IMG/VR virus record: IMGVR_UViG_3300017971_000261
Coordinates: 1 to 64,000 of that record
Reading direction: 5' to 3' (one strand)
Length of the DNA: 64,000 nt
DNA from: a virus
Made by a program: the position numbers and the translations under genes. Below are positions 5,978 to 50,570 of this stretch, in pieces (position 1 is the first letter of the stretch; each line of letters begins with the position of its first letter). The notes beneath the pieces are model-generated. The model searched no databases and had not been told where the DNA came from. It saw only the letters and a program-made list of their open reading frames with translations.

Positions 5978-6364
5978 CCAGGCCTCGATGTATCGATCTT
6001 TCATCAGAGATCTAACCCGGTATCTTCCTGGCCTTCCTAAGTCAAGCATTCCAGTCGTAACAAGCCCGGCCAAGAGCTTGTGCTTCTGTGCTTTTGTTAA
6101 CCTCTTGTACCCTGGAAGGTTAATTTGATGTTCTCGAACAAATGTGTCTAGTTCTTTCAGGGTGAAAGAAATCCAGGTTCCAATATGTCGCATATATCGA
6201 ATGACAACTGATCCCACCACGACAAGATCGATGAGCGGACAATCGGCCTGTAAACACTCATCGTCATTGATAGGGAACTCTGGCAGATTGGTTCTTCCGG
6301 CCGGGAATACGGGATTCGGCCACGGCGAGGTGGCTGGCACATCTATGGGCAGAGGTGCTAGCAT
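5972..6364 (-). CDS. Hypothetical protein, GxW/wHTH-like paralog family (probably leaderless)
   Basis: RYMRHIGTWISFTLKEL...LVTTGMLDLGRPGRYRV; ATG 6 nt after -10 box. Confidence 0.65.
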   Translation of the reverse strand: MLAPLPIDVPATSPWPNPVFPAGRTNLPEFPINDDECLQADCPLIDLVVVGSVVIRYMRHIGTWISFTLKELDTFVREHQINLPGYKRLTKAQKHKLLAGLVTTGMLDLGRPGRYRVRSLMKDRYIEAWS

Positions 6365-6370
6365 GATGCT

Positions 6371-6399
6371 AGTATACCACAAGATTGGTCTTATGTCAA
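6371..6399 (-). promoter_or_regulatory. Sigma70-type promoter
   Basis: TTGACA-N17-TATACT with TGTGG. Confidence 0.8.
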
Positions 6400-6401
6400 G
6401 C

Positions 6402-8659: not shown

Positions 8660-8820
8660 CCTTCAACATCTTTTTCAGACCGTTCTCCAAAACTTATGAA
8701 AATCTGAAACCACTCAAATCCTCTGTTTGGTTCTCAGTTCATCGAGGGACACTGGGCGGCAACGCCGCCCTGCAACCTTCCCTCTCCCTGAGCGTCAATT
8801 CCCGTGGAACTCACGGTATG
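8660..8820 (-). ncRNA. Putative TnpB omegaRNA (reRNA) plus guide
   Basis: Overlaps tnpB 3' end; hairpin GGGCGGC-GTT-GCCGCCC; element end ...TTTTGGAGAACGG at 8680; guide would begin TCTGAAAAAGATGTTGAAGG. Confidence 0.6.
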
Positions 8821-9897
8821 ATATCGTTCTAGGTTAATAGCTGCATTCAAATCTCTGTCGATGGACAGACCGCAGCCATCACAATGATAGGTTCGATCAC
8901 TCAACTTCAGATCGTCCTTGATACATCCGCATTCAGAGCACAACTTGCTGGATGGAAACCAACGGTCAGCTAATTCTACGTTGACTCCATTCCAGTCAGC
9001 CTTGTACTCGATCTGTCTTCGAAACTCAGAGACGGATGCATCCGCAACTGCTCTTGCCAACTTGTGATTCTTCAACATTCCTGACACGGAGAGATCCTCC
9101 AAGACTACAGTCCCAGATCGTTTGGTTTTCACGACCCAAGATGTAGCCTTGTGGATTGCGTCTCTCCGAATGTTGGAGATCCTGTAGTGCAAACGAGCGA
9201 TGCGTTGTCTGGTCTTCTCCCTCCTGTTGCTGCCCTTCTTCTGCCTAGAATGACGCCTCTGAAGGCGTCCGAGTTGCCGTTTCTTCGAGATCAGGGCTTT
9301 GGGATTCTCAAAGGTCGTCCCATCAGAGCAAGTCGCCAAGGTCTTGACGCCGACATCTATGCCTACAACCTTGTCAGAGCCGTTGTGCGGCATCTCGTAC
9401 TCTTCTTGGACGCTGAGAGAGACAAACCATCGTCCTGCTCGTTCTGAGAGCGTAGCCGAGAGTACGTGAGCATCCAGAGGTAGATAGCCCGCCTCTTTCA
9501 GCCTCAACCATCCGAGCCTGGGCAGTTTGATCCTTCGACTCTCGACACAGATTGATCCTGTCAGTCGAAACGATCCGGAGCAACCCGCCATCTTCTTCTT
9601 GAACTTCGGAAACCCGACTCCATCCTTGCGTCTCTCGAAGAAGTTCTTGAATGCTTGCTGGAGATTGCGGAAACTTTCCTGGGGAGCGGCTTTTGAGACC
9701 TCGACCCACCAGGGGATGTTCTGCTTTTTCCAGGCATTCCACTCTTTGTGGAGTTGCATGGCGTTTGGTTTGGATTCTTTGTTCTTCACCCGAGCAAGAG
9801 CCCAATTCCAAGCATACCGAGCCGTGCCAGCGTGCTTGCGAAGCAGAGTACGCTGGCAGTTGTTGGGATCGAGTTGTGTTTTGTAGCTTCTTAGCAT
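8734..9897 (-). CDS. tnpB: RNA-guided endonuclease TnpB (IS607/IS605 OrfB)
   Basis: N-terminal HTH (YKTQLDPN), GIDVG (RuvC I), LEDL (II), CSECG/CDGCG Zn ribbon, DRDLNAA (III). Confidence 0.95.
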   Translation of the reverse strand: MLRSYKTQLDPNNCQRTLLRKHAGTARYAWNWALARVKNKESKPNAMQLHKEWNAWKKQNIPWWVEVSKAAPQESFRNLQQAFKNFFERRKDGVGFPKFKKKMAGCSGSFRLTGSICVESRRIKLPRLGWLRLKEAGYLPLDAHVLSATLSERAGRWFVSLSVQEEYEMPHNGSDKVVGIDVGVKTLATCSDGTTFENPKALISKKRQLGRLQRRHSRQKKGSNRREKTRQRIARLHYRISNIRRDAIHKATSWVVKTKRSGTVVLEDLSVSGMLKNHKLARAVADASVSEFRRQIEYKADWNGVNVELADRWFPSSKLCSECGCIKDDLKLSDRTYHCDGCGLSIDRDLNAAINLERYHTVSSTGIDAQGEGRLQGGVAAQCPSMN

Positions 9898-9901
9898 CTT
9901 T

Positions 9902-10258
9902 CTATGACAGTTCATTAATTAGTTGTCTGTATTCTTCGTAGTCTAGACACCGATCACAACCGCAGTGCCCGCAGCCGTTGTAACACCAATCATCTGGATC
10001 TGAAGGTCCGTTCTTTTTGAGTATACGGACCAGCCGATCCACCTTCGCCTTCAGTTTGCTCATGGGGTGTTCAGGACATTCCTCAATGTGTTGTTTGAGG
10101 ACATCAGCCATTGATGCAGGGACTTCGTCTTCTGGTCCATACCGATGTCCACAATACACGCAGTTGATGTACATGCCAGACTGAAGATCGGCGACCCAGA
10201 TTTTGAGCCGCTCATTCTCTTCTTGAAGATCATGAAGTCTTTCGTACATCGTTTCCAT
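9902..10258 (-). CDS. Hypothetical Zn-binding phage protein
   Basis: CVYCGH...HIEECPEHPM. Confidence 0.65.
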   Translation of the reverse strand: METMYERLHDLQEENERLKIWVADLQSGMYINCVYCGHRYGPEDEVPASMADVLKQHIEECPEHPMSKLKAKVDRLVRILKKNGPSDPDDWCYNGCGHCGCDRCLDYEEYRQLINELS

Positions 10259-11283: not shown

Positions 11284-12264
11284 CTATAATTCACAGCGTT
11301 TTCTATTTTCTGAAAACCTCATGTCCAGATTTTCAATTGCCCTGAGGTTCTCGTCGTGCATGTTCAGCTTATAGAACATACATTTAGGTAATTCGAATTT
11401 CTCAGCGTACATTCTCCACGAAGGTATGACTATTCTGAAATCTCTGCGGCGAAACTTCACGGAATTACAGTGACCATCACGATGCTTGTTCCGGACAACA
11501 TGTAAGCTTAACGAAAATCGTTTGTTCAGGCTCTCGCAGAGGGATACCAGACCATCATAATCGAACAGTTTTGCTGAGATGCTTAGATTTGGCTTGGCAG
11601 CATGATGGCTACTCCCTCTCGTTCCGTCTTTTTTCATGCCAATGTTACCATCATCCAGATACCAAACCATCAAACCTAACAGATCAAGATCTTCTAGCAA
11701 ATCCAGAGGTACTTTCCCTTTTCTAGAATTTGTCATTTGATGGTAGAATTTCTCACGCAACAAAGAAAAAATGGGGTGAGAAACCGTCCACATTTCAGGT
11801 CTACCGCCGTCACCGTTAAAGTACTTAGGAAGGAAAACAGACAGCATCTTCATTTTCCACTTCACATAATCAGTCTGCTTACCACGATGTCCCTCATAGA
11901 ACAAATAGTTCCTTATTTTCCATCGGCGTTTATTCTTTCCAAGGCTGTTCTTTTTGATACAACCGTCTCCAAGTATGCTACCGAAGAGCACTTGTTTAGT
12001 TATATTGTCGAGATCACCTAGTGTAAGGCTCTGATCGAGCTTACACAGGTTGTTCTCATCAACAAACGAACGGCGGTATCTGCCGACTTTCGATAGATAA
12101 TCCTTATCTAGTTGTACCCCCAGCCTTTTCCGTTGACGCCTTATTGCCTCTTCGGTATGACGAGGTATTAGCTTCGACAACTCGTTTATCATCAACGTCG
12201 CTCCTTGTCGCCGAAGAATCTCGTTTTCTTCTTCTGTCCATCTTGCTTGGCTTTTTGTTTTCAT
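11284..12264 (-). CDS. Free-standing LAGLIDADG homing endonuclease with N-terminal Myb/HTH-like domain
   Basis: VLFGSILGDG and LMVWYLDDG; WTEEENEIL...RHTEEAIRRQ. Confidence 0.88.
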   Translation of the reverse strand: MKTKSQARWTEEENEILRRQGATLMINELSKLIPRHTEEAIRRQRKRLGVQLDKDYLSKVGRYRRSFVDENNLCKLDQSLTLGDLDNITKQVLFGSILGDGCIKKNSLGKNKRRWKIRNYLFYEGHRGKQTDYVKWKMKMLSVFLPKYFNGDGGRPEMWTVSHPIFSLLREKFYHQMTNSRKGKVPLDLLEDLDLLGLMVWYLDDGNIGMKKDGTRGSSHHAAKPNLSISAKLFDYDGLVSLCESLNKRFSLSLHVVRNKHRDGHCNSVKFRRRDFRIVIPSWRMYAEKFELPKCMFYKLNMHDENLRAIENLDMRFSENRKRCEL

Positions 12265-29932: not shown

Positions 29933-29955
29933 CCTAAGTGAACAAGGAGGCCCAC

Positions 29956-30957
29956 ATGCCTGCAGGGAAAGAAGTTGATCCTCACGTCGTCTCGCTAGCA
30001 GTCAAGGGAGCACTATTAGGTTATCTCGTTGGAGATTCAGTGGCCTATCCATACCGCGATATGACGGCTGAACAAATCGGAGATCTCAAAAAGATCGATC
30101 CAACCAAGACGCACGAGAGCCAAGAATCCCCGGGCGTTTTTACTAACCATGGCTCTACGATGCTCTGTTCGCTGGCCATGCTCAATGATTGTTCGGCGGC
30201 TGATGCTTCAGTGCTGCTCGAAAAATTCCAAGCCTGGCATGTCGGATCTTCATTTGCACCAGAAGTTGAGTCGGCTGAATGTGTCGAGATTGACATTGCC
30301 ACCTCAGAAGCGATCAAGAACTTCAACGACTCTATCCCTGCCGAAAGCTGTACCAGTCAAGGTGACAGCGCGTTGTCGAATGCGTGTTTGTCAAGAGTTC
30401 TTCCTGTTGCATTGTATTACGGGCCACTATCAGTCGACGAGACCATTGAAAATGCCATTGCTGTCTGTCGTGTAACTCACCCATGTGTCACAAGCGAAAC
30501 GGTCTCTGCCGCGTATGCCCTAGCCGTTCGCAATCTCATGCTCCGCAAGAAGGAAAAAATCTTCGATCTTCTTAAGGACTATCTCTCGTTTCGCAATCTG
30601 GAGGAACACCGACAAGAGGCCGAAAGAATCGCATCTTCCTCACGAGAACGCATGGCATCTCAGAACGTTCTTGACTGTTTCTGGGTGGGCTGGCAGGCCT
30701 ATGCTGCTTCGGGTCTGAACTTCGAACAAGCCATAATCTCTGCCATATCGATTGGTTCGGACACGTCCGCATCTGCGGCTCTTGCTGGCTCCCTTGTTGG
30801 TCTCTCTATTGGTGCTTACGAGATACCACAACGTTGGGTTGACGAACTCAAGCTGGACGCCGAGTCCAATGAGGAAATATCGGGCTTCGTCAAAACGGTA
30901 ACGAAGCGTGCGGTCAAGGCAATCTCCAAACCACAGGGGGTGCAAACTGATGCTTAA
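29956..30957 (+). CDS. ADP-ribosylglycohydrolase (DraG/ARH) family, degenerate metal ligands
   Basis: GALLGYLVGDS, SNACLSRVLP, RVTH, GSDTSASAALAGSL. Confidence 0.85.
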   Translation: MPAGKEVDPHVVSLAVKGALLGYLVGDSVAYPYRDMTAEQIGDLKKIDPTKTHESQESPGVFTNHGSTMLCSLAMLNDCSAADASVLLEKFQAWHVGSSFAPEVESAECVEIDIATSEAIKNFNDSIPAESCTSQGDSALSNACLSRVLPVALYYGPLSVDETIENAIAVCRVTHPCVTSETVSAAYALAVRNLMLRKKEKIFDLLKDYLSFRNLEEHRQEAERIASSSRERMASQNVLDCFWVGWQAYAASGLNFEQAIISAISIGSDTSASAALAGSLVGLSIGAYEIPQRWVDELKLDAESNEEISGFVKTVTKRAVKAISKPQGVQTDA

Positions 30958-31198
30958 GGTCAAAGCGAAGGGCAATGAAGCTGCTGAACACATGTGGCGG
31001 CGTTTCCAGAAGATCTGCGAGAAAGAGGGCCTGATGCGCGACATTAAGCGTCGCATGTACTACGAGTCACCCTCTGAGGAACGCCGAAGGAAGAGGCTTA
31101 AAGCCAAACGCCGAAGAATCAAAGAAACCCAAAGAAACAAACAGAAGACGAAAAGACGTAAACCTTCGCGTGGAAGGATCGCATTCCGGTCTAACTAA
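30950..31198 (+). CDS. rpsU: 30S ribosomal protein bS21
   Basis: RRFQKICEKEGLMRDIKRRMYYESPSEERRRK. Confidence 0.9.
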   Translation: MLKVKAKGNEAAEHMWRRFQKICEKEGLMRDIKRRMYYESPSEERRRKRLKAKRRRIKETQRNKQKTKRRKPSRGRIAFRSN

Positions 31199-33860: not shown

Positions 33861-34223
33861 ATGGAAGTAAGTCGCTCCGACACACGATATGTTTGTGTGC
33901 TTCATTGCAACAGGGCCAAGAAGAATTTGGCCCACAGTCTAGCCAAAACTCCCTATCAATACGAAATCGAGCAGATTCCTGATTGCCCAACTCAGTACAG
34001 GGAAATCTTCGTTCGTGCCACCCTCGCTCGGTTAGCAGGATCGTTTCGGAACGGTAAACCGTTTGAGGTCATTCTGGATCATATAATGTCTTTGGACAAT
34101 GCTGTAATTGTCGTTTTTGGACATGAAGATCTTTTACCACTGATTCAGTCATGGGCAGAGCAAAATTCTTGTAAGTTTCGTTGCTGGAAAACTTGCCACA
34201 GCGTCGATCTTGTGGTATCCTAG
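33861..34223 (+). CDS. Hypothetical protein
   Basis: ORF behind TTGCAA-N17-TATGAT. Confidence 0.55.
   Translation: MEVSRSDTRYVCVLHCNRAKKNLAHSLAKTPYQYEIEQIPDCPTQYREIFVRATLARLAGSFRNGKPFEVILDHIMSLDNAVIVVFGHEDLLPLIQSWAEQNSCKFRCWKTCHSVDLVVS
34193..34221 (+). promoter_or_regulatory. Sigma70-type promoter for the ncRNA/tRNA unit
   Basis: TTGCCA-N17-TATCCT with TGTGG. Confidence 0.65.
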
Positions 34224-34227
34224 GGTG

Positions 34228-34390
34228 TGCGGGAGCGTGAGCTATGTCACACTCGAAGGGGAACAAGCATGCTGGCAAGCGAAATTACGTCCACCAGGGT
34301 TGGGTAGGATCAAAATGGTGGAAACAGGCTCGGTATGCTCGTTGGGATGACCACAGACAGAAGGATAGTGGCCTTCCTTTCAGGCGAAAA
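34228..34390 (+). ncRNA. Candidate structured RNA leader ahead of tRNA-Leu
   Basis: GAGCGT/ATGCTC, GAGC/GCTC, TCCACCA/TGGTGGA, GAAGG/CCTTC pairings. Confidence 0.4.
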
Positions 34391-34410
34391 GACAAAAAGA
34401 AGAAACGTTA

Positions 34411-34623
34411 GGTCGGGTGGCGAAATTGGCAGACGCGCAGCGACAAGCATTGGCGACAACTGTACCAGGCGTTGCCGTGCTGTCGACTCTACAACACCTT
34501 GCCGCCATCGAGTGGCGTACGACGCCACTGGTACCGGCGAACAGCCATGGCGGATGCCGTAGGGTCTACATTGAGGACGCTGTGTCCCATAGGGGCGTGC
34601 TGGTTCGAATCCAGCCCCGGCCT
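34411..34623 (+). tRNA. tRNA-Leu(GAG) interrupted by a 128-nt insert (34443-34570)
   Basis: Acceptor GGTCGGG/CCCGGCC, Leu-type D arm, anticodon stem CAGCG/CGCTG, loop TTGAGGA after insert, long variable arm, GCTGG-TTCGAAT-CCAGC; discriminator T. Confidence 0.85.
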
Positions 34624-34658
34624 TTACTTCGCCCATTTTTTGCCGACTGGAGACAGAC

Positions 34659-35741
34659 ATGATCACATTCGAAGTTTCGGATGCACCGCAAGTGAGGGGT
34701 CCTGCAACGGGCATCAACCCCAAGCAGTTCATCGAGGAGGGGCTGCTCAATGGCCCCATCGAACAGTGTTGCGATTATCAGGCGACACTCAGGCATGTCC
34801 CTACATCGCATCCCTTGTTCGGTGCGGCCTATGCTGCGTTCTGTGAGCACAAACCGCTGGTTCTCTCGCCGGACATGATCTGGATCACGATCATGCAGGG
34901 GTTGGCGAACCATATCAACCTCGACCCGGAGAAGTACAGACACCAGTTCGTGGAGCACGAAGGCAAAGAAGAGATCAAGATTCGTCATGACGGTCTTGTC
35001 AAAGGCAGCCCGGAGAATCCGTGGCACGAAGTAATCGGCATGTTCTCCGCTCAGCTGAGACCACGGATCTTGAACAATGTTCACGATTATGTGGTCTGTG
35101 ACTTCAGCACAACCGATCTCGTCGAGCGTGTTTCCTCAATCATGGTCTTGATGGATGCCATGCAGGGATACTTCGACTACAGGGTGATGACTATCTGTGG
35201 TATTCCGAAGGTTACATTGGAGGGGGAACCGTCTGACTGGCAGGCAATCGCTGAGAGAGTCCCGAAGCTGAATGATTACGGCCTCGATTGGTGGACGCAG
35301 CGACTCGGGCCGGTGTGCGACGAGTTTGTGAAGGCCTCGCTCGGCGATGTCGACGAGGAACACTGGATGAACATCTTCCAGGAACAAAGCATGGGAAGCG
35401 GCGGTCCTAACTTGTTTGGGTGGCTGTTCTACTTCTTGCCTTACACGAAAGACCATCAAACCAACGCCCCGACAGTCGTGAACCGGATGTTGACACAGCC
35501 GGAACGCAGACTGAGAAAAGGAAGCCATCGTGCTGGGCCAGGAGCGTCACTTGACACTGACGACATCCCGATGTCCCTTTCTAAGGTTCCCTTCATATGG
35601 GAATATCACGGGAATGTGTCCAATTACGAGTTCCTGGCGGGCATCATCGGAGCTACTGAGTCTGAAGAGGATTGCTCAATCCGACCGAAAGTCGGTTGGG
35701 CCGTCCGTCCGAAGCCGGAGGAACAGGCAGAACAAGCGTGA
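34659..35741 (+). CDS. DUF4419 family protein
   Basis: HKPLVLSPDMIW, HEGK, FSTT, CGIPKVTLEG...DW. Confidence 0.85.
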   Translation: MITFEVSDAPQVRGPATGINPKQFIEEGLLNGPIEQCCDYQATLRHVPTSHPLFGAAYAAFCEHKPLVLSPDMIWITIMQGLANHINLDPEKYRHQFVEHEGKEEIKIRHDGLVKGSPENPWHEVIGMFSAQLRPRILNNVHDYVVCDFSTTDLVERVSSIMVLMDAMQGYFDYRVMTICGIPKVTLEGEPSDWQAIAERVPKLNDYGLDWWTQRLGPVCDEFVKASLGDVDEEHWMNIFQEQSMGSGGPNLFGWLFYFLPYTKDHQTNAPTVVNRMLTQPERRLRKGSHRAGPGASLDTDDIPMSLSKVPFIWEYHGNVSNYEFLAGIIGATESEEDCSIRPKVGWAVRPKPEEQAEQA

Positions 35742-36604: not shown

Positions 36605-36688
36605 GTCCCGGTGGTGGAACTGGCAGACACGCGGGCCCGAGGAGCCCGTGCTCGAAAGAGCGTGAGGGTTCGAATCCCTCCCGGGACA
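36605..36688 (+). tRNA. tRNA-Leu(GAG), C at position 33
   Basis: GTCCCGG/CCGGGAC, stem CGGGC/GCCCG, loop CCGAGGA, long variable arm, A73. Confidence 0.92.
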
Positions 36689-36714
36689 TTCATGCCGCAG
36701 TTCAAACGAATCTC

Positions 36715-36743
36715 TTGACATGAGCAGGATCATGTGGTATACT
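36715..36743 (+). promoter_or_regulatory. Sigma70 promoter
   Basis: TTGACA-N17-TATACT with TGTGG. Confidence 0.8.
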
Positions 36744-36875
36744 AGAAGCACGGATGAAGGTTCGCGCTCTGAGGTAACGGTAGCGATATAATGAGATGAC
36801 GAATAAGGCAGAGCTGTAAAAAGAAAGGTGCCTGCCTCTGCTGTTTCGAATGTTAGTTTAACGGAGGAAACTAAC

Positions 36876-37658
36876 ATGACAGCAAGAAGCCGCAGACGAT
36901 ACAGCGAAAGCCAATTTCGTGAAGCCGTAAGAGAGTCGCGTTCAGTTGCAGAAGCATTGAGGAAACTTGGTCTTTCACCCCATGGCGGTGGAGGATATGA
37001 GTCATTCTACTCATATTGCGAGGAGACCGGAACGGATTGGAGCCATTTCAAGGGCCAGGGTTGGTTGCGTGGCGGTTCATGTTCGTGGTCTCAGTTCAAA
37101 GCAAGACCTCTTGAGGAGATATTAGTAGAAGATTCTACTTATCTTTCTACTGCCAATCTGAAGCGCAGGCTTATCAAAGAGGGCGTGTTTGAGGACAAAT
37201 GTTACGAATGTGGTCTTAAGGAATGGCGTGGGAGCAAATTGCCGACTGAGCTGCATCATAAGAACGGCAACAGACGTGACAATAGGCTGTCCAACCTAAT
37301 AATACTTTGTCGGAATTGTCACGGTCTAACACAGAATTTTCGCCAGCGTAACGGGAGATCGTCCAATGGCGTCCTGGGACAACGGAAACACAAACCAGGG
37401 CGAAACAGAACAGGACGAAAACGAGAGCTTAATGACAGAACGTGCCCTACTTGTCATAAAGAATTCAGGCCTCGCCGTAGGGAACAGAGATTCTGTTCGT
37501 ATACCTGCAGTTCTCTGTCGAGGCGAAAACGAGATCGGCCGAATAAGGCCGTCCTTTTGCGGATGGTTAACGAATCTTCTGTCTGTGCTGTCGCCAGGGA
37601 CATGGGAGTATCGGACAACACTATACGCAAATGGATCAAATTCGGAGAAGACTGTTAA
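36876..37658 (+). CDS. HNH endonuclease with Zn finger and C-terminal HTH
   Basis: CYECG, ELHHKNGNRRDNRLSNLIILCRNCH, CPTC...FCSYTC, ARDMGVSDNTIRKW. Confidence 0.9.
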   Translation: MTARSRRRYSESQFREAVRESRSVAEALRKLGLSPHGGGGYESFYSYCEETGTDWSHFKGQGWLRGGSCSWSQFKARPLEEILVEDSTYLSTANLKRRLIKEGVFEDKCYECGLKEWRGSKLPTELHHKNGNRRDNRLSNLIILCRNCHGLTQNFRQRNGRSSNGVLGQRKHKPGRNRTGRKRELNDRTCPTCHKEFRPRRREQRFCSYTCSSLSRRKRDRPNKAVLLRMVNESSVCAVARDMGVSDNTIRKWIKFGEDC

Positions 37659-37662
37659 ATTA

Positions 37663-37747
37663 GGCCCAGTGGCGAAACGGAAAACGCGGCACGCTCAAAC
37701 CGTGTTGTCCCATCGTGGACTTGAAGGTTCGAATCCTTCCTGGGCTA
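37663..37747 (+). tRNA. tRNA-Leu(CAA)
   Basis: GGCCCAG/CTGGGCT, stem GCACG/CGTGT, loop CTCAAAC, T arm GAAGG-TTCGAAT-CCTTC. Confidence 0.93.
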
Positions 37748-37768
37748 TTAAATTCAACAGGTGTAGTT

Positions 37769-38536
37769 ATGTCGGCCACCAAGGAAATCTACTCGAACTG
37801 CAGACTACTGTCTCCGGACGGTGTTCTCATGTGCTACTGCGGCCACGACAAGGTCAAGTGGTACTTGGACAGAGGCGTTGCAGAGGTCGTAGAGATACGG
37901 CCGCATCTAACGGTGCGTCTACTGTTCGAGCCTGAGGGTCTTGGCAAGGCCGGAGACCCCTTCTACCTGCAGGTGCGTGAGAACAAGTGCTGTGTGTGTG
38001 GTAGCAAGGAAGACCTAACGAAGCACCACGTTATTCCTTTGTGCTACAGAAGGCACCTGAATGGATCGCGAAACACGCACCATGATGTTCTGCCGATCTG
38101 TAGAACCTGCCACAACAAGTATGAGCGTGACTACGCGATCGAAGTAAGACAAAACTTCGCGAAGCGTTACAAGGCACCGCTGGGTGGTCTCGTTGGTGAC
38201 GTTGATGCTGCAGTATTTGCACGCGTCAGCCGTTGTGCAAGTGCTCTGGTTCGATACGGCGACCGTATTCCGGCAAACCGTCGTAACGAACTTCGGGATG
38301 TGATCGATCAGTTTCTCGGTCGTCTCGCTACGTGGGACGAAATCTTGGAGCTGTCGGAGAACTACCGAGAGCGTGATGACTATCTCAGCCATCCGGAGAT
38401 CGTCGCACAGAAGATCACGGACTTGGATACGTTCTACAAGATCTGGAGACGACACTTCGTTCACACGATGCGACCGCGCTTCTTGCCGGAGCACTGGTCC
38501 ATCAATCGAAGTATCGTAGAGGAAACCATGAGCTGA
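37769..38536 (+). CDS. HNH-like protein resembling the EXD2 C-terminal domain
   Basis: YSNCRLLSPDG...KWYL...LLFEP...CCVCG...HHVIP.CYR...HDVLPICRTCH. Confidence 0.7.
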   Translation: MSATKEIYSNCRLLSPDGVLMCYCGHDKVKWYLDRGVAEVVEIRPHLTVRLLFEPEGLGKAGDPFYLQVRENKCCVCGSKEDLTKHHVIPLCYRRHLNGSRNTHHDVLPICRTCHNKYERDYAIEVRQNFAKRYKAPLGGLVGDVDAAVFARVSRCASALVRYGDRIPANRRNELRDVIDQFLGRLATWDEILELSENYRERDDYLSHPEIVAQKITDLDTFYKIWRRHFVHTMRPRFLPEHWSINRSIVEETMS

Positions 38537-39173: not shown

Positions 39174-39426
39174 TTTCAAACAGGCATTAACAGACGCTGC
39201 TGATTTGTTTTGTGCCTACATGTACTTGAAAATGCGATACGTCAGGGAACCAGACAGCATCGTAACCGGCAACCTTAAGCCAGAGAAAGGAACAATCAGG
39301 TTTACTCGCGGGAGAATGCAACTGCTGATCAAAGTGAAGTATGCTTCTTTGGCAGCAGATGCGACCACTGGACTCTTCCCGCATACTTGGATTTTGGATG
39401 TCCAAAAGCAAGCCAAATCCGGATGA
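39163..39426 (+). CDS. Hypothetical protein (tandem paralog 2)
   Basis: ALTDAADL...GRM...TWILDVQ. Confidence 0.6.
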   Translation: MKIDFKQALTDAADLFCAYMYLKMRYVREPDSIVTGNLKPEKGTIRFTRGRMQLLIKVKYASLAADATTGLFPHTWILDVQKQAKSG

Positions 39427-41389
39427 GTACAGTGAAAAGTCAATCAAGATCCTTGAGGGTCTGACTGCTGTACGCAAGCGTCCATCCATGTATATCGGCG
39501 ATGTCGGTCATGCCGGTCTCCATCATCTCGTTCAAGAAATCATCGACAACAGTGTAGATGAAGCACTTGCTGGGCACTGCACTGCAATACAGGTTGTTCT
39601 ACACAAGAACGGCTCTTGTACGATCTCAGACAATGGCCGTGGCATCCCAGTCTACAAAATGAAGCACGAGAACCCAAAGATCAACGGCAAGCCAGCCGCC
39701 GAGATCTGCCTGACTACTCTTCATGCCGGTGGTAAGTTTGACCGATCGATCTACAAGGTTTCCGGTGGATTGCATGGCGTCGGTGTCAGTGTTGTCAACG
39801 CCTTAAGCAAGTGGCTATGGCTTGAAGTAAAACGCGATGGCAAGATGTGGCAGATGGAATTCGAACAAGGCAAAACCACCAAACCGATGAAGTCCAAGGG
39901 TGCAACGAATGCAACTGGAACGACCATTCAGTTTCAGCCGGACCCGAAAATCTTCAAGAAGGATCGGACCTTCTCATATGAGCTGTTACGGGATCGCTTG
40001 CGTGAACTTGCCTTCCTGAATGATGGACTCAGCATATCTATCAAAGACGAGAGAACTGGGAAAAAAGATCGTTTCAAATTCAGGGATGGACTGAAACAGT
40101 TTGTCAAGGCGGTTGCCAGTGGAAGTGAGCCTATCCATCCCGTGCTTCGTCTTTCCGGCCGGGAAAAGGAAACCGGTCTTCAGATGGATCTGGCACTCCA
40201 GTATACCGATGAGTATTCAGAAAATACTCTCGTGTTTGCCAACAACATCCGCAACATGGATGGTGGCACACATCTTTCTGGTTTGCGGTCTGCCCTGACA
40301 CGTACCATCAACACCTATGGTAGAACTGCCGGTATCTTCAAGGATGGTATGAACCCAACAGGAGATGATATACGAGAGGGTCTTTGTGCCGTTCTTTCTG
40401 TCCGAGTCCCGGAGCCACAGTTTGAGGCACAAACCAAAGTTCGCCTGATGAATCCGGAGGTAGGAACCTTCGTAGAACAGACTGTAAACCGTCTCCTGTC
40501 CCAGTGGTTGGACTCAAACCCACATGATGCTAAGAAGATCGCCCTGAAGGGCCTGAGGGCCGCTAGAGCACGAGAAGCAGCCAGGAAGGCCAGAGAGCTG
40601 TCACGGAAGGGTTCCCAGGCCAAGGATGACATGCCAGCAAAGCTCTGGGATTGCACGAGCAGACGTGTCAGGGAGCGTGAGATCTTTTTGGTTGAAGGCG
40701 ATTCGGCCGCTGGCAGTGCGAAGAGCGGCAGGGATAGTAAATTTCAGGCCATCCTTCCCTTGCGTGGCAAGATACTGAACGTTGAAAAGGCCAGAATCGA
40801 CAAGGTCCTGTCAAACGAGGCCCTACGTCAAATGGTGACGGCAATCGGCTGCGGCATTGGACGTCTGGATTTTGATCTGAATAAGCGTAGATACGACAAG
40901 ATCATTATCATGACAGATGCCGACGTTGATGGAAGCCATATCAGGACCTTGATCTTGACCTTCTTATTCAGACACATGAGGCCACTGATAGAAGGTGGGC
41001 ATGTCTATGTCGCGTTACCGCCGCTGTTCGAGATCAGAAAGAAAGGTGGCCGCAAAAGCATCTATCTAAAAGACGAATCAGACCTCAATAGATGGGCCCA
41101 ATCTGAGGAAGTAGACATCAAGGAGTCAAAGGATTACGTGATGAAGCGTTTCAAGGGTCTCGGCGAGATGAACGCTGAGCAGCTTTGGGACACCACCATG
41201 AATCCTGAGAATCGTCAACTTCAGAAGGTTGTCATGTGCGACAGGACGGATGATGAAAGTAGCATGGAATACCAGATGGATGCACGTGAGGCGGATCGAA
41301 TGTTCAAGGTTCTGATGGGCTCAAATGCAGAAATACGAAGGACATACATCGAGGAAAACGCCTTGCATGTTGGCCAGCTGGATGTCTGA
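39398..41389 (+). CDS. gyrB: Type IIA topoisomerase B subunit (GyrB/ParE)
   Basis: VRKRPSMYIG, EIIDNSVDE, GGLHGVG, EGDSA, PLRGK, MTDADVDG, RFKGLGEM. Confidence 0.95.
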   Translation: MSKSKPNPDEYSEKSIKILEGLTAVRKRPSMYIGDVGHAGLHHLVQEIIDNSVDEALAGHCTAIQVVLHKNGSCTISDNGRGIPVYKMKHENPKINGKPAAEICLTTLHAGGKFDRSIYKVSGGLHGVGVSVVNALSKWLWLEVKRDGKMWQMEFEQGKTTKPMKSKGATNATGTTIQFQPDPKIFKKDRTFSYELLRDRLRELAFLNDGLSISIKDERTGKKDRFKFRDGLKQFVKAVASGSEPIHPVLRLSGREKETGLQMDLALQYTDEYSENTLVFANNIRNMDGGTHLSGLRSALTRTINTYGRTAGIFKDGMNPTGDDIREGLCAVLSVRVPEPQFEAQTKVRLMNPEVGTFVEQTVNRLLSQWLDSNPHDAKKIALKGLRAARAREAARKARELSRKGSQAKDDMPAKLWDCTSRRVREREIFLVEGDSAAGSAKSGRDSKFQAILPLRGKILNVEKARIDKVLSNEALRQMVTAIGCGIGRLDFDLNKRRYDKIIIMTDADVDGSHIRTLILTFLFRHMRPLIEGGHVYVALPPLFEIRKKGGRKSIYLKDESDLNRWAQSEEVDIKESKDYVMKRFKGLGEMNAEQLWDTTMNPENRQLQKVVMCDRTDDESSMEYQMDAREADRMFKVLMGSNAEIRRTYIEENALHVGQLDV

Positions 41390-44758: not shown

Positions 44759-46642
44759 ATGCCAAAGCGAACAGTAAATAGATCCTTTTCAGATGTTCTG
44801 GGAGAATTACGTTCGGATGTTTCTATGAATCGAACTGGAGGAATCCCAGACATCATTGAATTCACGTTCAGTCCACATTGGTTGAACGTTCGTGCCTCAG
44901 GAATCGCTAATCTTTACCCGGTCCAAACGATTATTCTCAAGTCCTTTTATAGAGGAAGCATTGGCAATGAAAATCTCACGCTGACCGAAGAGGAATTAGA
45001 CAAGCTTAAGAAACTAAAGCACGACAATATCATTGACAAATATCACGACCTTGGAAATTTCAGGGAATTGGTGCTTGTGCTCGGTCGTCGTTCTGGCAAG
45101 AACCTCATGACATCGATCGTTGCATTGTATGAAGCCATGAAGCTGATCGAGATTCCAGGCGGATCTCCTTACGAATACTATGGAATTGCTCGCGGTGCTC
45201 CTGTTTACGTGCTAGGAATCGCGAGTGCTGCCGAGCAGGCACAGCTTCTGTTCTCCGAGATTCGTACACGCGCTCAATCATCTGATTACTTCAAACGGCA
45301 TATGGTGCCCGGTGCTATTGGTTCACAGACAATCAGCCTTCTAACACCAGAAGACAGGGAAGTCAATAGGCAACTAGATAGGGATGGCTTGCCAGAGGCC
45401 AAGACAAAAGGCAGTGTTGTCATCTACAGCGGCCACTCGAACAGCAATTCGCTCGTTGGAAAACGTTGCATCATGCTGGTCATGGATGAAGTGGCGTCTT
45501 ACCCACAAACTAGCGGACCATCATCCGGTGATGCCCTATATCAACAGCTCGTGCCCATGACCGCCGACTTCAAGCGTAAGGTTGGTCAAACTGAGGACGG
45601 AAAAGACCGATATAGGCTTGACTCTAAGATTATTGCTATTTCGTCACCAAGAGGCGAGGAAGGTCTTCTTTTCCGCCTATATAGCAACGCCAGAAGACGA
45701 AAAAGCCGATTGGCCTACAAGTTACCAACTTGGGATGTTAATATGGGTGTAACTAAGGAGATGCTTTTTGAAGAATATCCAGAGTTACGTCCTGTTGAGT
45801 TCAATATGCAGTTTGGTGCTGAGTTCTCAGGAACTTCAGGTGAGAAGTTCATACCAGACCGTTATGTGGATGATGCAATCGAACTGGGACGCGTAATGGG
45901 CGTGCTCAAAAGACCTCTCGGCGAACGGGGTTTGGTTTACTATGCTCATCTGGACCCTGCGTCAAGAAGCCACAACTTTGCTCTCGTTATTTTACACATT
46001 GAGGAATACATCAGAGAAAGGGTGAAAGCTGACGGACGAAAGGCTAAAGAAGTAACAAAGGTATTCGTTGTCGACCACCTGATGGTGTGGGAGCCGGGGG
46101 TCAAAGAATCAATCAACGTCAAGGAGGTTGAGGATTATATTGTTGGACTCAGCAAGAAATTCAAGTTTGCCACTGTCACTTATGATGCCTGGAATTCACC
46201 ATCTAGCAAGGATGTTTTGCAGAGGCACGGGATACCTAATAGGGAAACAGCATTCCGAAAACATTACAAGATGGGCATTTATGACCAGCTAGAAGACCTT
46301 TTAGTCAATAATCAGATAGCTTTACCAGCAGGCTCGCCAAGGTACAAGGAAGCAGAATTGCTTGAACTGGAGCTGAAATCCCTGAAGCGGCAATATACTG
46401 CTAACGGTTTTCAGATAAAGCCTGACGAAAACGGCCTTGTACAGACAGATGACTTATGTGATGCACTTGCTGGTGCTGTAGGTTCTGCCATGGGCGGAAT
46501 CTATGATGGATACCCAAAAGGGGCCGTTGCGTATATGCCTGCTTTCAGATCTGGTGGAGCAAACAGGCCATGGTTGATCGGAAGAGGCGTATTTAACAAC
46601 CAAGAGATCAAAACGCTGGGTGGCCGGTTTGGTATGTTCTAG
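44759..46642 (+). CDS. terL: Terminase large subunit
   Basis: LGRRSGKN (Walker A), LVMDE (Walker B), ISSP, nuclease HLDPA, YDAWNS, DDLCDALAG. Confidence 0.9.
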   Translation: MPKRTVNRSFSDVLGELRSDVSMNRTGGIPDIIEFTFSPHWLNVRASGIANLYPVQTIILKSFYRGSIGNENLTLTEEELDKLKKLKHDNIIDKYHDLGNFRELVLVLGRRSGKNLMTSIVALYEAMKLIEIPGGSPYEYYGIARGAPVYVLGIASAAEQAQLLFSEIRTRAQSSDYFKRHMVPGAIGSQTISLLTPEDREVNRQLDRDGLPEAKTKGSVVIYSGHSNSNSLVGKRCIMLVMDEVASYPQTSGPSSGDALYQQLVPMTADFKRKVGQTEDGKDRYRLDSKIIAISSPRGEEGLLFRLYSNARRRKSRLAYKLPTWDVNMGVTKEMLFEEYPELRPVEFNMQFGAEFSGTSGEKFIPDRYVDDAIELGRVMGVLKRPLGERGLVYYAHLDPASRSHNFALVILHIEEYIRERVKADGRKAKEVTKVFVVDHLMVWEPGVKESINVKEVEDYIVGLSKKFKFATVTYDAWNSPSSKDVLQRHGIPNRETAFRKHYKMGIYDQLEDLLVNNQIALPAGSPRYKEAELLELELKSLKRQYTANGFQIKPDENGLVQTDDLCDALAGAVGSAMGGIYDGYPKGAVAYMPAFRSGGANRPWLIGRGVFNNQEIKTLGGRFGMF

Positions 46643-49748: not shown

Positions 49749-50570
49749 ATGGACAGGGAAACGACAAAAGAGACAACCAAGAATTCAAACTCATCTGTCG
49801 ATGCTGTCGTGGAATCCCTGTCTCGTTTTGCTGATCTGTTTGATTTGCCACATCTCTTTCTGATGGGCGGTTATCCTCGTCACCTATACTACGAAAAGCC
49901 CTGTACGGATAACCGGTTGGATGTCGTTTGCGCTTACGATGATCTTACAGAGGAGATGGCTAATCTGTTTGCATCAGAGATTCTTGGCCGTCTTCCGTCC
50001 TTCAAAGGCCACAGGGGCGATATCATCATCAAGACATCGGACGACGAGCCGAACATCGAGCTGCATTTCCAGTCTTACAGCCCAAACTCTCATCTCTACA
50101 ACCCTGACTTGAAAAATCATTTGGCTGCTAGCGAGGCTGACACCATCCCCATTATGCACAATGCGTATGGAAGAGATTTTACTGTAGATACACTTGCTTA
50201 TGCTTTAGATGATGGTTATCTCTACGACCCAACAGGTCGTGCATCTAGGGATTTGAAAGACAAAAAGCTGGACAGCATGCTCTCTCCAGAAACCCTGTTC
50301 AAGTTCTGCCCAAAAGCAGCTTTTAGGGCACTGAATCTTGCACTTGATGAGGATCTCGACATTTCTCCGAGACTTGGTAAAGGCATACGATCTGCCATAC
50401 CGAGGATCATGGCTGTCATACCAGAAAACGAACGCACCAGAAATGCAATCAGGACAATAGTTAAGCACCGGGAGGATGGCCTCGATTTACTGAAGAAGTA
50501 TAACCTTGACCGGTTCCTAATCAATGATAAGGTCAAGAACATACTGAAACAGGAGGCTAAAGGTGCATGA
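49749..50570 (+). CDS. tRNA nucleotidyltransferase/poly(A) polymerase-like protein, degenerate active site
   Basis: FLMGGYPRH, RLDVV in place of DxD, GRDFTVDTL, LYDPTG. Confidence 0.7.
   Translation: MDRETTKETTKNSNSSVDAVVESLSRFADLFDLPHLFLMGGYPRHLYYEKPCTDNRLDVVCAYDDLTEEMANLFASEILGRLPSFKGHRGDIIIKTSDDEPNIELHFQSYSPNSHLYNPDLKNHLAASEADTIPIMHNAYGRDFTVDTLAYALDDGYLYDPTGRASRDLKDKKLDSMLSPETLFKFCPKAAFRALNLALDEDLDISPRLGKGIRSAIPRIMAVIPENERTRNAIRTIVKHREDGLDLLKKYNLDRFLINDKVKNILKQEAKGA

What the first reader, a model, noticed from the sequence alone, without database searches (positions are those of the whole stretch)
34411..34623. tRNA-Leu(GAG) carrying a 128-nt folded insert at position 31/32 that fits no known intron class
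Seen: removing 34443-34570 gives a normal Leu cloverleaf (stem CAGCG/CGCTG, loop TTGAGGA, matching the CCGAGGA loop of the tRNA at 36605). The insert is mostly base-paired. Hairpin 1 is CGACA-A-GCA-T-TGGCGAC...GTTGCCG-TGC-TGTCG and invades the last 2 nt of the 5' exon. Domain 2 is closed by GACTCTAC/GTAGGGTC and contains CCGCCAT/ATGGCGG, AGTGGCGT/ACGCCACT and GGC-GAACA-GCC. The insert begins and ends with ACA, and the discriminator is T rather than the Leu identity base A73. Known: bacterial group I tRNA introns follow a U, end in G and are longer; group II introns start GUGYG. I could not build a bulge-helix-bulge across these junctions. Inference: this is a new small tRNA intron/ribozyme, or an ncRNA displayed on a natural tRNA scaffold (for example an anticodon-nuclease decoy).
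Basis: partly seen in the sequence, partly recalled or inferred. Interest (0 to 1): 0.82.

Follow-up and report, generated by a model that had tools for sequence, protein, structure and literature searches.

The report
Phage leucine tRNA carrying folded insert
A marine phage's leucine-tRNA gene is split exactly between anticodon stem and loop by a 128-base, tightly folded insert that matches no known intron, ribozyme or mobile element; it has no relatives in any database searched, so whether it is spliced out, kept as a tRNA-framed RNA, or marks a dead gene remains open.

Summary
The exon junction CAGCG|TTGAGG is the junction seen in 17 ordinary uninterrupted tRNA-Leu genes that share the same 23-nt 5' exon end.

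The insert folds into a hairpin plus a three-way-junction domain (-57 kcal/mol, z = -3.8). It is not a group I or group II intron, a bulge-helix-bulge intron, a tRNA-shaped mini-intron, any Rfam family, or a repeat. I found no homologue anywhere, so covariation could not be tested. No RNA data exist.

The host is bacterial, probably Planctomycetota.

Points against a working, spliced tRNA-Leu:
- The discriminator is U73, against A73 in the phage's three other Leu tRNAs and in all 17 natural look-alikes.
- No splicing enzyme is seen in the part of the genome held.

Points for it:
- The anticodon arm is perfectly canonical.
- The "intact" GAG paralogue has an odd C33.

Phages do carry many tRNA-Leu "frames" with roughly 120-130-nt cargo RNAs (T5 RNA1; 32 found here in IMG/VR; also noted earlier in this scan on other DNA).

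My best reading (0.4) is an unspliced, tRNA-framed structured RNA. Rivals are a novel intron (0.27) and a recently disrupted gene (0.23).

The parts
34193..34221 (+). sigma-70-type promoter-like site (TTGCCA-17-TATCCT with TG), about 190 nt upstream of the tRNA
   Evidence: Consensus scan. It lies in a motif repeated at 36714-36750 (11/12 match to consensus) and, inverted, at 6364-6400 (inverted repeats I1 and I4). Function is inferred, not shown.
34244..34411 (+). 55-aa, very basic, Trp-rich ORF. Its TAG stop overlaps tRNA nucleotide 1.
   Evidence: ORF list and translation. No Pfam hit and no usable Atlas hit. Whether it is a real gene, or related to the RNA, is unknown.
34411..34442 (+). 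5' part of tRNA-Leu(GAG): acceptor 5' strand, D arm and anticodon-stem 5' strand CAGCG (positions 1-31)
   Evidence: ARAGORN -i. The last 23 nt are identical to 17 natural tRNA-Leu genes.
34443..34570 (+). 128-nt insert (cargo or intron), 60% G+C in a 48% G+C genome
   Evidence: It is single-copy in the 80-kb record. There is no Rfam match.
34446..34481 (+). Hairpin 1 (AGCA-U-UGGCGAC ... GUUGCCG-UGCU). It can extend to 34441-34485 by pairing exon C30-G31 and ACA with UGUCG.
   Evidence: Minimum-free-energy folds.
34485..34566 (+). Domain 2. An 8-bp closing stem and an internal loop lead to a three-way junction of 34502-34508/34547-34553, hairpin 34511-34529 and hairpin 34536-34546.
   Evidence: Minimum-free-energy fold. 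The motifs TGGCG (x3) and CGCCA (x2) also allow an alternative 1:2/3:4 pairing.
34462..34468 (+). Hairpin-1 loop segment GUACCAG, candidate pseudoknot partner
   Evidence: A 7-bp duplex with 34528-34534 at -11.8 kcal/mol. This is predicted only, and GGUACC is a palindrome.
34528..34534 (+). Junction segment CUGGUAC, candidate pseudoknot partner
   Evidence: Predicted only; there is no covariation to test it.
34571..34623 (+). 3' part of the tRNA: loop UUGAGGA, stem CGCUG, long variable arm, T arm, acceptor 3' strand and discriminator U73. No encoded CCA.
36605..36688 (+). Uninterrupted paralogue tRNA-Leu(GAG), 67% identical, with A73 but loop CCGAGGA (C33)
   Evidence: 49.8 bits to RF00005.

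Best explanation
The locus most likely makes one stable, unspliced RNA of about 213 nt: a complete class-II tRNA-Leu body that carries a 128-nt folded cargo domain at the top of its anticodon loop.

Inferred mechanism:
1. The RNA is transcribed from the phage promoter at about 34193 together with the flanking genes.
2. The tRNA body folds independently of the cargo.
3. The host's tRNA-end enzymes (RNase P, 3' trimming) cut it out of the mRNA, and it receives CCA, possibly from the phage's own nucleotidyltransferase.
4. The tRNA frame thus gives the cargo defined ends and stability, as in phage T5 RNA1 and the many phage tRNA-Leu 'frames'.

With U73 it is probably not charged by LeuRS. The cargo, or the displayed GAG loop, is the working part; its target is unknown.

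Because the anticodon arm is still perfect, this would be a young member of that kind, an intermediate between a real tRNA-Leu and an anticodon-less frame.

Shown here: the anatomy, the absence of known intron features, and the existence of the frame class. Inferred: expression, processing, lack of splicing, and function.
For: 1. **No splicing route found.**
   - No Rfam ribozyme or intron hit at E <= 10, with a positive control for group I in a relative.
   - The exon ends in G and the intron ends in A.
   - No BHB.
   - No RtcB, Rnl2-type or EndA genes in the record.
2. **Discriminator.** It is U73 here. It is A73 in the phage's three other Leu tRNAs and in all 17 natural genes with the same 5' exon end. 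By established knowledge, A73 is the major LeuRS identity element.
3. **Cloverleaf and cargo are compatible.** The constrained fold is -94.0 against a free fold of -94.7 kcal/mol.
4. **Precedent.**
   - T5 RNA1 is annotated as a 144-nt 'tRNA-like stable RNA'. ARAGORN -i reads it as tRNA-Leu with a 40-nt insert in the anticodon loop.
   - SPP1 has a Leu-type frame.
   - 32 of 119 IMG/VR pattern hits are single tRNA-Leu frames of 197-226 nt with closed acceptor stems.
5. **Same genomic setting as T5.** tRNAs are interleaved with HNH endonuclease genes.
6. **Expression context.** There is a promoter-like site upstream and a phage CCA-adding-type enzyme.
7. **Cargo composition.** The cargo is strongly folded and G+C-rich relative to the genome, as structured RNAs are.
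Against: - The frames found in IMG/VR have lost the anticodon arm and mostly the variable arm. Here both are perfect, including U33, G37 and a 5-bp stem. That is what a spliced, decoding tRNA would need.
- Most frames keep A73 (22 of 32), so U73 is not a hallmark of the class.
- The cargo shares nothing with the recurrent cargo motifs of those frames.
- There is no homologue, no covariation and no expression evidence for this RNA. The pseudoknot is only a prediction.
- The other GAG tRNA has C33, and CUU plus CUC make up 45% of Leu codons. A second working GAG tRNA would therefore be useful to the phage.
Confidence: 0.4

Rival explanations
1. A genuine tRNA intron of a new kind. The 128-nt RNA is removed, either by its own catalysis or by unidentified phage or host proteins (cut and re-join), to give a decoding tRNA-Leu(GAG).
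For: - Removal restores exactly the natural 31|32 junction, a canonical loop UUGAGGA (U33, G37) and all stems.
- The compact fold has a possible 7-bp pseudoknot.
- The last 6 exon nt (GCAGCG) can pair with insert nt 36-41 (UGCUGU), read directly from the sequence.
- GAG reads CUU and CUC, which are 45% of Leu codons, and the other GAG gene has an abnormal C33.
- Phages of this lineage do carry tRNA introns (group I in L328).
- 'Enigmatic' phage tRNA introns are on record (PMC6784885).
Against: - At 128 nt it is far below any known self-splicing intron.
- It lacks the group I, group II and BHB defining features.
- No RNA ligase or splicing endonuclease is found in the 58% of the genome held.
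- U73 should cripple leucylation.
- There is no homologue and hence no conserved core.
Confidence: 0.27
2. A tRNA-Leu gene recently disrupted by insertion of foreign structured DNA, with no function for the product. The donor could be a hairpin-ended, non-autonomous IS200/IS605-like (PATE-type) or REP-like element, or a piece of host DNA.
For: - The gene is redundant in anticodon with 36605.
- U73 could be the first decay mutation.
- The insert has hairpins close to both ends, no target duplication and no terminal inverted repeat, as IS200/IS605-type elements do (established knowledge).
- A TnpB (OrfB_IS605) gene and several homing endonucleases show that this genome is invaded by mobile DNA.
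- The insert's G+C (60%) is nearer a planctomycete host than the 48% of the phage.
- The opposite strand also folds well.
Against: - It is single-copy in the record and not similar to the flanks of the TnpB gene.
- No copy is found in phage, plasmid, IMG/VR or metagenome searches.
- No insert-less allele is seen.
- Apart from position 73, every stem and every conserved tRNA nucleotide is intact, so decay has not begun.
- The sense strand folds better relative to shuffles (z = -3.8 against -1.85).
Confidence: 0.23
3. Assembly chimera: the insert was joined into the tRNA gene by mis-assembly across tRNA repeats.
For: - Logan contigs break inside the 3' exon at 34584/34586.
- The next 156 nt have lower depth (3.1 against about 8), so a second haplotype may exist.
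Against: - One contig in each of two runs carries the upstream gene, the 5' exon, the whole insert and 14 nt of 3' exon with no differences.
- The two exons fit each other perfectly (acceptor 7/7, anticodon stem 5/5), which a chimera of different genes would not give.
Confidence: 0.03

Closest known systems
Phage T5 RNA1 (AY543070, misc_RNA 30501-30644, annotated 'tRNA-like stable RNA with unknown functions')
   Same: - Both have a class-II tRNA-Leu-like body (Leu-type D arm, long variable arm, T arm) with extra folded sequence inside the anticodon arm.
- ARAGORN -i reads both as 'tRNA-Leu with intron'.
- Both lie in a tRNA cluster interleaved with HNH endonuclease genes.
   Different: - The T5 insert is about 40 nt (one hairpin), against 128 nt with a three-way junction here.
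- There is no sequence similarity.
- T5 RNA1 is annotated in its GenBank record as a stable RNA; I did not check the underlying experiments. This RNA has never been observed.
Phage tRNA-Leu 'frames' carrying 110-140-nt cargo in place of the anticodon arm
   Same: - The acceptor stem closes over about 200-225 nt.
- The D arm is Leu-type (GTGGYGRAA..AGACRC) and the T loop is canonical.
- The cargo is of similar size at the same place.
   Different: - Those frames have no real anticodon arm, and their cargos share AT-rich motifs absent here.
- A model of this cargo finds none of them.
- 22 of 32 have A73; this one has U73.
Group I introns in bacterial and phage tRNA anticodon loops (Rfam RF00028), for example the one found here in a relative (L328:1184-1421)
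   Same: An insert in the anticodon arm of a bacterial-type tRNA gene, in a phage lineage that has such introns.
   Different: - Site 31/32 instead of within or after the anticodon.
- The exon ends in G, not U, and the intron ends in A, not G.
- 128 nt against more than 200 nt.
- No match to RF00028 at E <= 10, whereas the relative's intron scores 94 bits.
'Enigmatic' tRNA introns of Lak megaphages (Devoto et al. 2019, PMC6784885) and the tRNA-shaped mini-introns noted earlier in this scan
   Same: Non-group-I inserts in phage tRNA genes, of unknown removal mechanism.
   Different: - Those inserts are themselves tRNA-like, and some end in CCA.
- This one is not called as a tRNA by ARAGORN, is a hairpin plus a three-way junction, and ends UACA.
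Engineered tRNA scaffolds for recombinant RNA (Ponchon and Dardel design; from my own knowledge, not checked here)
   Same: Cargo RNA is placed in the anticodon arm of a tRNA so that the cell processes and stabilises it.
   Different: The engineered design replaces the loop. Here the loop is kept on the 3' side, and this is a natural gene.

Membership tests
Group I intron | Match to the catalytic-core covariance model (RF00028) | tested here: not met
   No hit at E <= 10 on 34300-34750. The same tool gives 94.2 bits for a tRNA intron in relative G004.
Group I intron | 5' exon ends in U (U-G pair in P1) and the intron ends in G | tested here: not met
   The exon ends ...CAGCG and the intron ends ...CTACA.
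Group II intron | 5' GUGYG, domain V, 3' AY | tested here: not met
   The insert starts ACAAG. There is no RF00029 or D1-D4 hit.
Archaeal/eukaryal protein-spliced tRNA intron | Bulge-helix-bulge (two 3-nt bulges, 4-bp helix) across both splice sites | tested here: not met
   All 32 registers were scored. None combines a complete 4-bp central helix with flanking helices; the best central helix is 3 of 4 pairs.
Archaeal/eukaryal protein-spliced tRNA intron | Splicing endonuclease (EndA) and RtcB-type ligase available | tested here: not met
   No PF01974 and no PF01139 in the record. The host is bacterial: bS21, and GyrB nearest to Phycisphaerae. The record is only 58% complete, and the host genome was not testable.
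tRNA-shaped phage mini-introns (Lak-type) | The insert itself folds as a tRNA-like cloverleaf, often ending in CCA | tested here: not met
   ARAGORN finds no tRNA inside the insert. The fold is a hairpin plus a three-way junction, and it ends UACA.
Phage tRNA-Leu frame RNAs (T5 RNA1-like) | Class-II Leu-type D arm, T arm and a closed acceptor stem spanning a cargo of about 40-140 nt at the anticodon-arm position | tested here: met
Phage tRNA-Leu frame RNAs (T5 RNA1-like) | Accumulates as an unspliced stable RNA | not testable with these tools
   No RNA run holds the locus.
Phage tRNA-Leu frame RNAs (recurrent pseudoknot-cargo family) | Cargo homologous to the shared cargo (motifs such as GTAAGACAAGT and GAAAATATTAAG) | tested here: not met
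   No blastn-short hit in the cargo. Model R1 finds none of them.
MITE / IS-derived element | Terminal inverted repeats, target-site duplication, several copies | tested here: not met
   The ends are ACAAGCA... and ...GGTCTACA, with no inverted repeat and no duplication. It is single-copy, and there are no copies in the collections searched. Host genomes could not be searched.
Small self-cleaving ribozymes and other Rfam RNAs | Match to any of 4227 Rfam models | tested here: not met
   Only two chance-level hits: tRNA-Sec at 16 bits and Moco-II at 14 bits.
Functional bacterial tRNA-Leu | Discriminator A73 (LeuRS identity element) | tested here: not met
   T at 34623. The three sister tRNAs and the 17 natural look-alikes have A73.

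The most novel reading that the evidence does not exclude
The insert is the first member of a new class of small (128-nt) bacterial or phage tRNA introns sitting at position 31/32. It would be removed either by a compact pseudoknotted ribozyme or by a cut-and-rejoin protein pathway not yet known in bacteria.
Probability: 0.2. Interest if true: 0.9.

Novelty: new variant of a known kind. Interest (0 to 1): 0.5.

Why it matters
**If unspliced.** The RNA would be a natural 'tRNA scaffold' caught at an early stage: a complete, canonical tRNA-Leu that has just acquired a cargo domain. It would link ordinary phage tRNAs to the large, almost undescribed set of anticodon-less tRNA-Leu frames (T5 RNA1, SPP1 and many uncultured phages). 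It would also show how such RNAs arise.

**If spliced.** It would be a new intron class in the bacterial world, with either the smallest self-splicing RNA known or a new protein pathway.

**Either way.** The locus is small enough (213 nt) for direct tests in vitro. Its weakness is that it is a singleton from an uncultured phage, without relatives and without RNA data.

Tried and rejected
**Searches for a homologue of the insert (all empty)**
- blastn 'distant' against phages and plasmids.
- Own genome.
- One IMG/VR pattern taken from the insert.
- One metagenome pattern.
- Covariance model R1 on about 2.7 Mb of fetched loci and on 50 whole records of TerL relatives.
- The earlier-findings index, by sequence and by relatives.

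**Searches for close relatives of the phage**
- DUF4419 and TerL single-protein scans of IMG/VR found none.
- A TerL alignment found only relatives at 39-52% identity, with different tRNA sets.
- The nearest GyrB and DUF4419 homologues are bacterial, not phage.

**RNA evidence**
- No RNA holder is listed among the public runs.
- DNA contigs show no insert-less form. The 'joints' at 34438 and 34442 are other organisms' tRNA-Leu genes.

**Host genomes**
- Phycisphaerae genomes could not be searched.

**Ideas considered and rejected**
- The cargo as a derivative of a tRNA: local alignment is no better than shuffles.
- The cargo as related to the omega-RNA or ends of the phage's TnpB gene: no similarity.
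- A protein-coding reading of the overlapping ORFs (149, 81 and 75 aa): no family hits.

**Other negative or inconclusive results**
- RNA_lig_T4_1 (PF09511) was searched, but its control rang nowhere, so that negative result is uninformative.
- The 55-aa basic ORF has no recognisable family.
- Literature searches found no description of this kind of insert.

Full report
**What is there.** The window is the first 64 kb of an 80,267-bp IMG/VR virus record, estimated 58% complete. Default ARAGORN and Rfam at gathering thresholds report only uninterrupted tRNA-Leu genes in the window: ARAGORN three (GAG 36605, CAA 37663, TAA 38836), Rfam two of them. With introns allowed, ARAGORN calls a fourth gene: tRNA-Leu(gag) at 34410-34624, with a 128-nt intron at 34443-34570 placed 'cagcg-Intron-ttgag'. 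That is between anticodon-stem position 31 and loop position 32. The joined exons give a regular class-II cloverleaf. The boundaries cannot slide, because neither intron end repeats the neighbouring exon end.

**The junction is the natural one.** An exact search of metagenome contigs with the last 23 nt of the 5' exon returned 17 ordinary tRNA-Leu(CAG) genes. In each of them CAGCG is followed directly by a 7-nt loop and CGCTG. The predicted exon junction is therefore the natural one, and the frame is a typical bacterial tRNA-Leu.

**Fold of the insert.**
- Forcing the whole cloverleaf costs only 0.7 kcal/mol in the 213-nt precursor, so the tRNA body and the insert can coexist.
- The loop of hairpin 1 can form a 7-bp duplex (-11.8 kcal/mol) with the junction strand of the three-way junction. 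This is a prediction only.
- The opposite strand folds less well relative to shuffles (z = -1.85). G-U counts are similar on both strands, so the strand argument is weak.

**Context.**
- The virus infects a bacterium. It encodes ribosomal protein bS21.
- Its GyrB is about 60% identical to GyrB of Phycisphaerae/Planctomycetota, and no phage homologue is closer.
- The DUF4419 gene just downstream of the tRNA is about 45% identical to bacterial genes that include planctomycetes.
- All four tRNA genes are Leu, lack CCA, and each starts 0-4 nt after a stop codon. Two HNH endonuclease genes lie between them.
- The phage also has a TnpB gene, a LAGLIDADG endonuclease and a CCA-adding-type nucleotidyltransferase.
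- A promoter-like site that belongs to a repeated phage motif lies 190 nt upstream of the interrupted gene.
- The genome is 48% G+C and the insert is 60%.

**What it is not.**
- Rfam (4227 models) at E <= 10 gives only two chance-level hits. The same tool finds a bona fide group I intron (94 bits) in a tRNA of a TerL relative (L328), so the negative result is meaningful.
- The exon ends in G and the insert ends in A, against group I. The insert starts ACAAG, against group II.
- A systematic scan of all registers finds no bulge-helix-bulge.
- The record has no EndA, no RtcB and no Rnl2-type ligase. The Rnl1 search had no working control.
- The insert has no terminal inverted repeat and no target duplication. 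It is single-copy, and it resembles neither the TnpB flanks nor the tRNAs.

**No relatives.**
- I found no homologue of the insert in the phage or plasmid collections or in IMG/VR or metagenome pattern scans.
- Covariance model R1 found nothing in about 2.7 Mb of fetched loci or in 50 whole records of TerL relatives.
- The phage itself has only distant relatives, at 39-52% TerL identity and 35-40% G+C, with ordinary tRNA sets.
- No RNA run holds the locus. DNA contigs from two runs carry the insert, and none lacks it.
- Those contigs break at 34584/34586, and the next 156 nt have lower depth. This hints at a second haplotype of the 3' half, which I could not resolve (note 4).

**Two observations pull in opposite directions.**
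- Against a working tRNA: the discriminator is U73. The three sister tRNAs and all 17 natural look-alikes have A73, and A73 is the main LeuRS identity element (established knowledge).
- For a working tRNA: the anticodon arm is flawless (U33, G37, 5-bp stem). The 'intact' GAG paralogue has C33 instead of the near-universal U33. GAG would read CUU plus CUC, which are 45% of the phage's Leu codons.

**The lead that changed my reading.** Earlier notes of this scan describe a large, uncatalogued set of phage 'tRNA-Leu frames' carrying 118-130-nt cargo. They name phage T5 RNA1 and RNA2 as the closest annotated RNAs. I checked this.
- T5 RNA1 is annotated as a 144-nt 'tRNA-like stable RNA' in a tRNA/HNH cluster. 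ARAGORN -i reads it as tRNA-Leu with a 40-nt insert in the anticodon loop.
- SPP1 has a Leu-type frame.
Of these, 32 are single frames of 197-226 nt with closed acceptor stems.
- Their cargos share AT-rich motifs that are absent here, and none keeps a true anticodon arm.

This locus therefore works like that class in its architecture, but it is not a member of the recurrent cargo family. It looks like a complete tRNA that has only recently gained a cargo.

**Verdict.**
- The best-supported reading (0.4) is an unspliced, tRNA-framed structured RNA. It would be processed and stabilised through its tRNA body and not charged, because of U73.
- A novel intron (0.27) is kept alive by the perfect anticodon arm and the odd paralogue.
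- A recently disrupted, functionless gene (0.23) is kept alive by the singleton status, the mobile-DNA-rich genome and the host-like G+C.
- A mis-assembly is unlikely (0.03).
Its exclusion of known intron classes is supported. Its positive claim remains undecided.

Noticed in passing
window 36605-36688: The uninterrupted tRNA-Leu(GAG) has the anticodon loop CCGAGGA, that is C33 instead of the near-universal U33. It still scores 49.8 bits to RF00005 and has A73. This could be a defect or an anticodon-loop change of the kind proposed to evade tRNA-targeting defences.
   Followed up: partly
window 34244-34411: A 55-aa extremely basic, Trp-rich ORF (ending in KDKKKKR) has a stop codon that overlaps nucleotide 1 of the interrupted tRNA. 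It has no family hit. It could be an RNA-binding partner, or not a gene at all.
   Followed up: partly
window 34192-34223, 36714-36750, 6364-6400 (inverted): A repeated phage promoter motif, CTTGaCA-N17-TGTGGTATaCTAG. One copy lies in front of the interrupted tRNA operon and one follows the second tRNA.
   Followed up: partly
window 49749-50570: A phage-encoded PolyA_pol-head nucleotidyltransferase (CCA-adding-enzyme type, 273 aa). All four phage tRNA genes lack an encoded CCA.
   Followed up: partly
window 34584-34742: Public-run contigs break at 34584/34586. The 156-nt piece over the tRNA 3' half, the spacer and the start of DUF4419 has depth 3.1 against about 8 on both sides. A second haplotype of this stretch may exist.
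   Followed up: no
window 39341-41389 and 34659-35741: GyrB is about 60% identical to Phycisphaerae GyrB, and DUF4419 is about 45% identical to bacterial (including planctomycete) proteins. Both look host-derived and point to a Planctomycetota host.
   Followed up: partly
window 8734-9915 (-), 11284-12264 (-), 36828-37658, 37715-38536: There is a TnpB (OrfB_IS605/Cas12f-like TNB) gene, a LAGLIDADG endonuclease and two HNH endonucleases. The HNH genes alternate with the tRNA genes, as in the T5 tRNA region.
   Followed up: partly
L328:1159-1466 (IMGVR_UViG_3300033153_013781): A TerL relative carries a tRNA gene interrupted by a bona fide group I intron (RF00028, 94 bits, 1184-1421).
   Followed up: partly
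IMG/VR loci such as L013, L043, L044, L061, L075, L135, L139, L159, L162: There are many tRNA-Leu-framed RNAs of 197-226 nt with cargo in place of the anticodon arm. Several share motifs (GTAAGACAAGT..GGTAA, GAAAATATTAAG). Discriminators are A 22, C 7, G 2, T 1 among 32.
   Followed up: partly
window 44759-46642 and its homologues: Many TerL homologues of this phage group are 900-1,440 aa and match in two or three stretches. This suggests inteins or other insertions in the terminase genes of relatives. This phage's TerL (627 aa) is uninterrupted.
   Followed up: no
window 34502-34553: Four segments of the insert (CCGCCAT, GTGGCGT, ACGCCAC, ATGGCGG) can pair either 1:4 plus 2:3, as in the best fold, or 1:2 plus 3:4. 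This is a possible conformational switch or the trace of a duplicated hairpin.
   Followed up: no
window 29938-31198: An ADP-ribosylglycohydrolase-family gene is followed by phage-encoded ribosomal protein bS21 (PF01165, 56 bits).
   Followed up: partly
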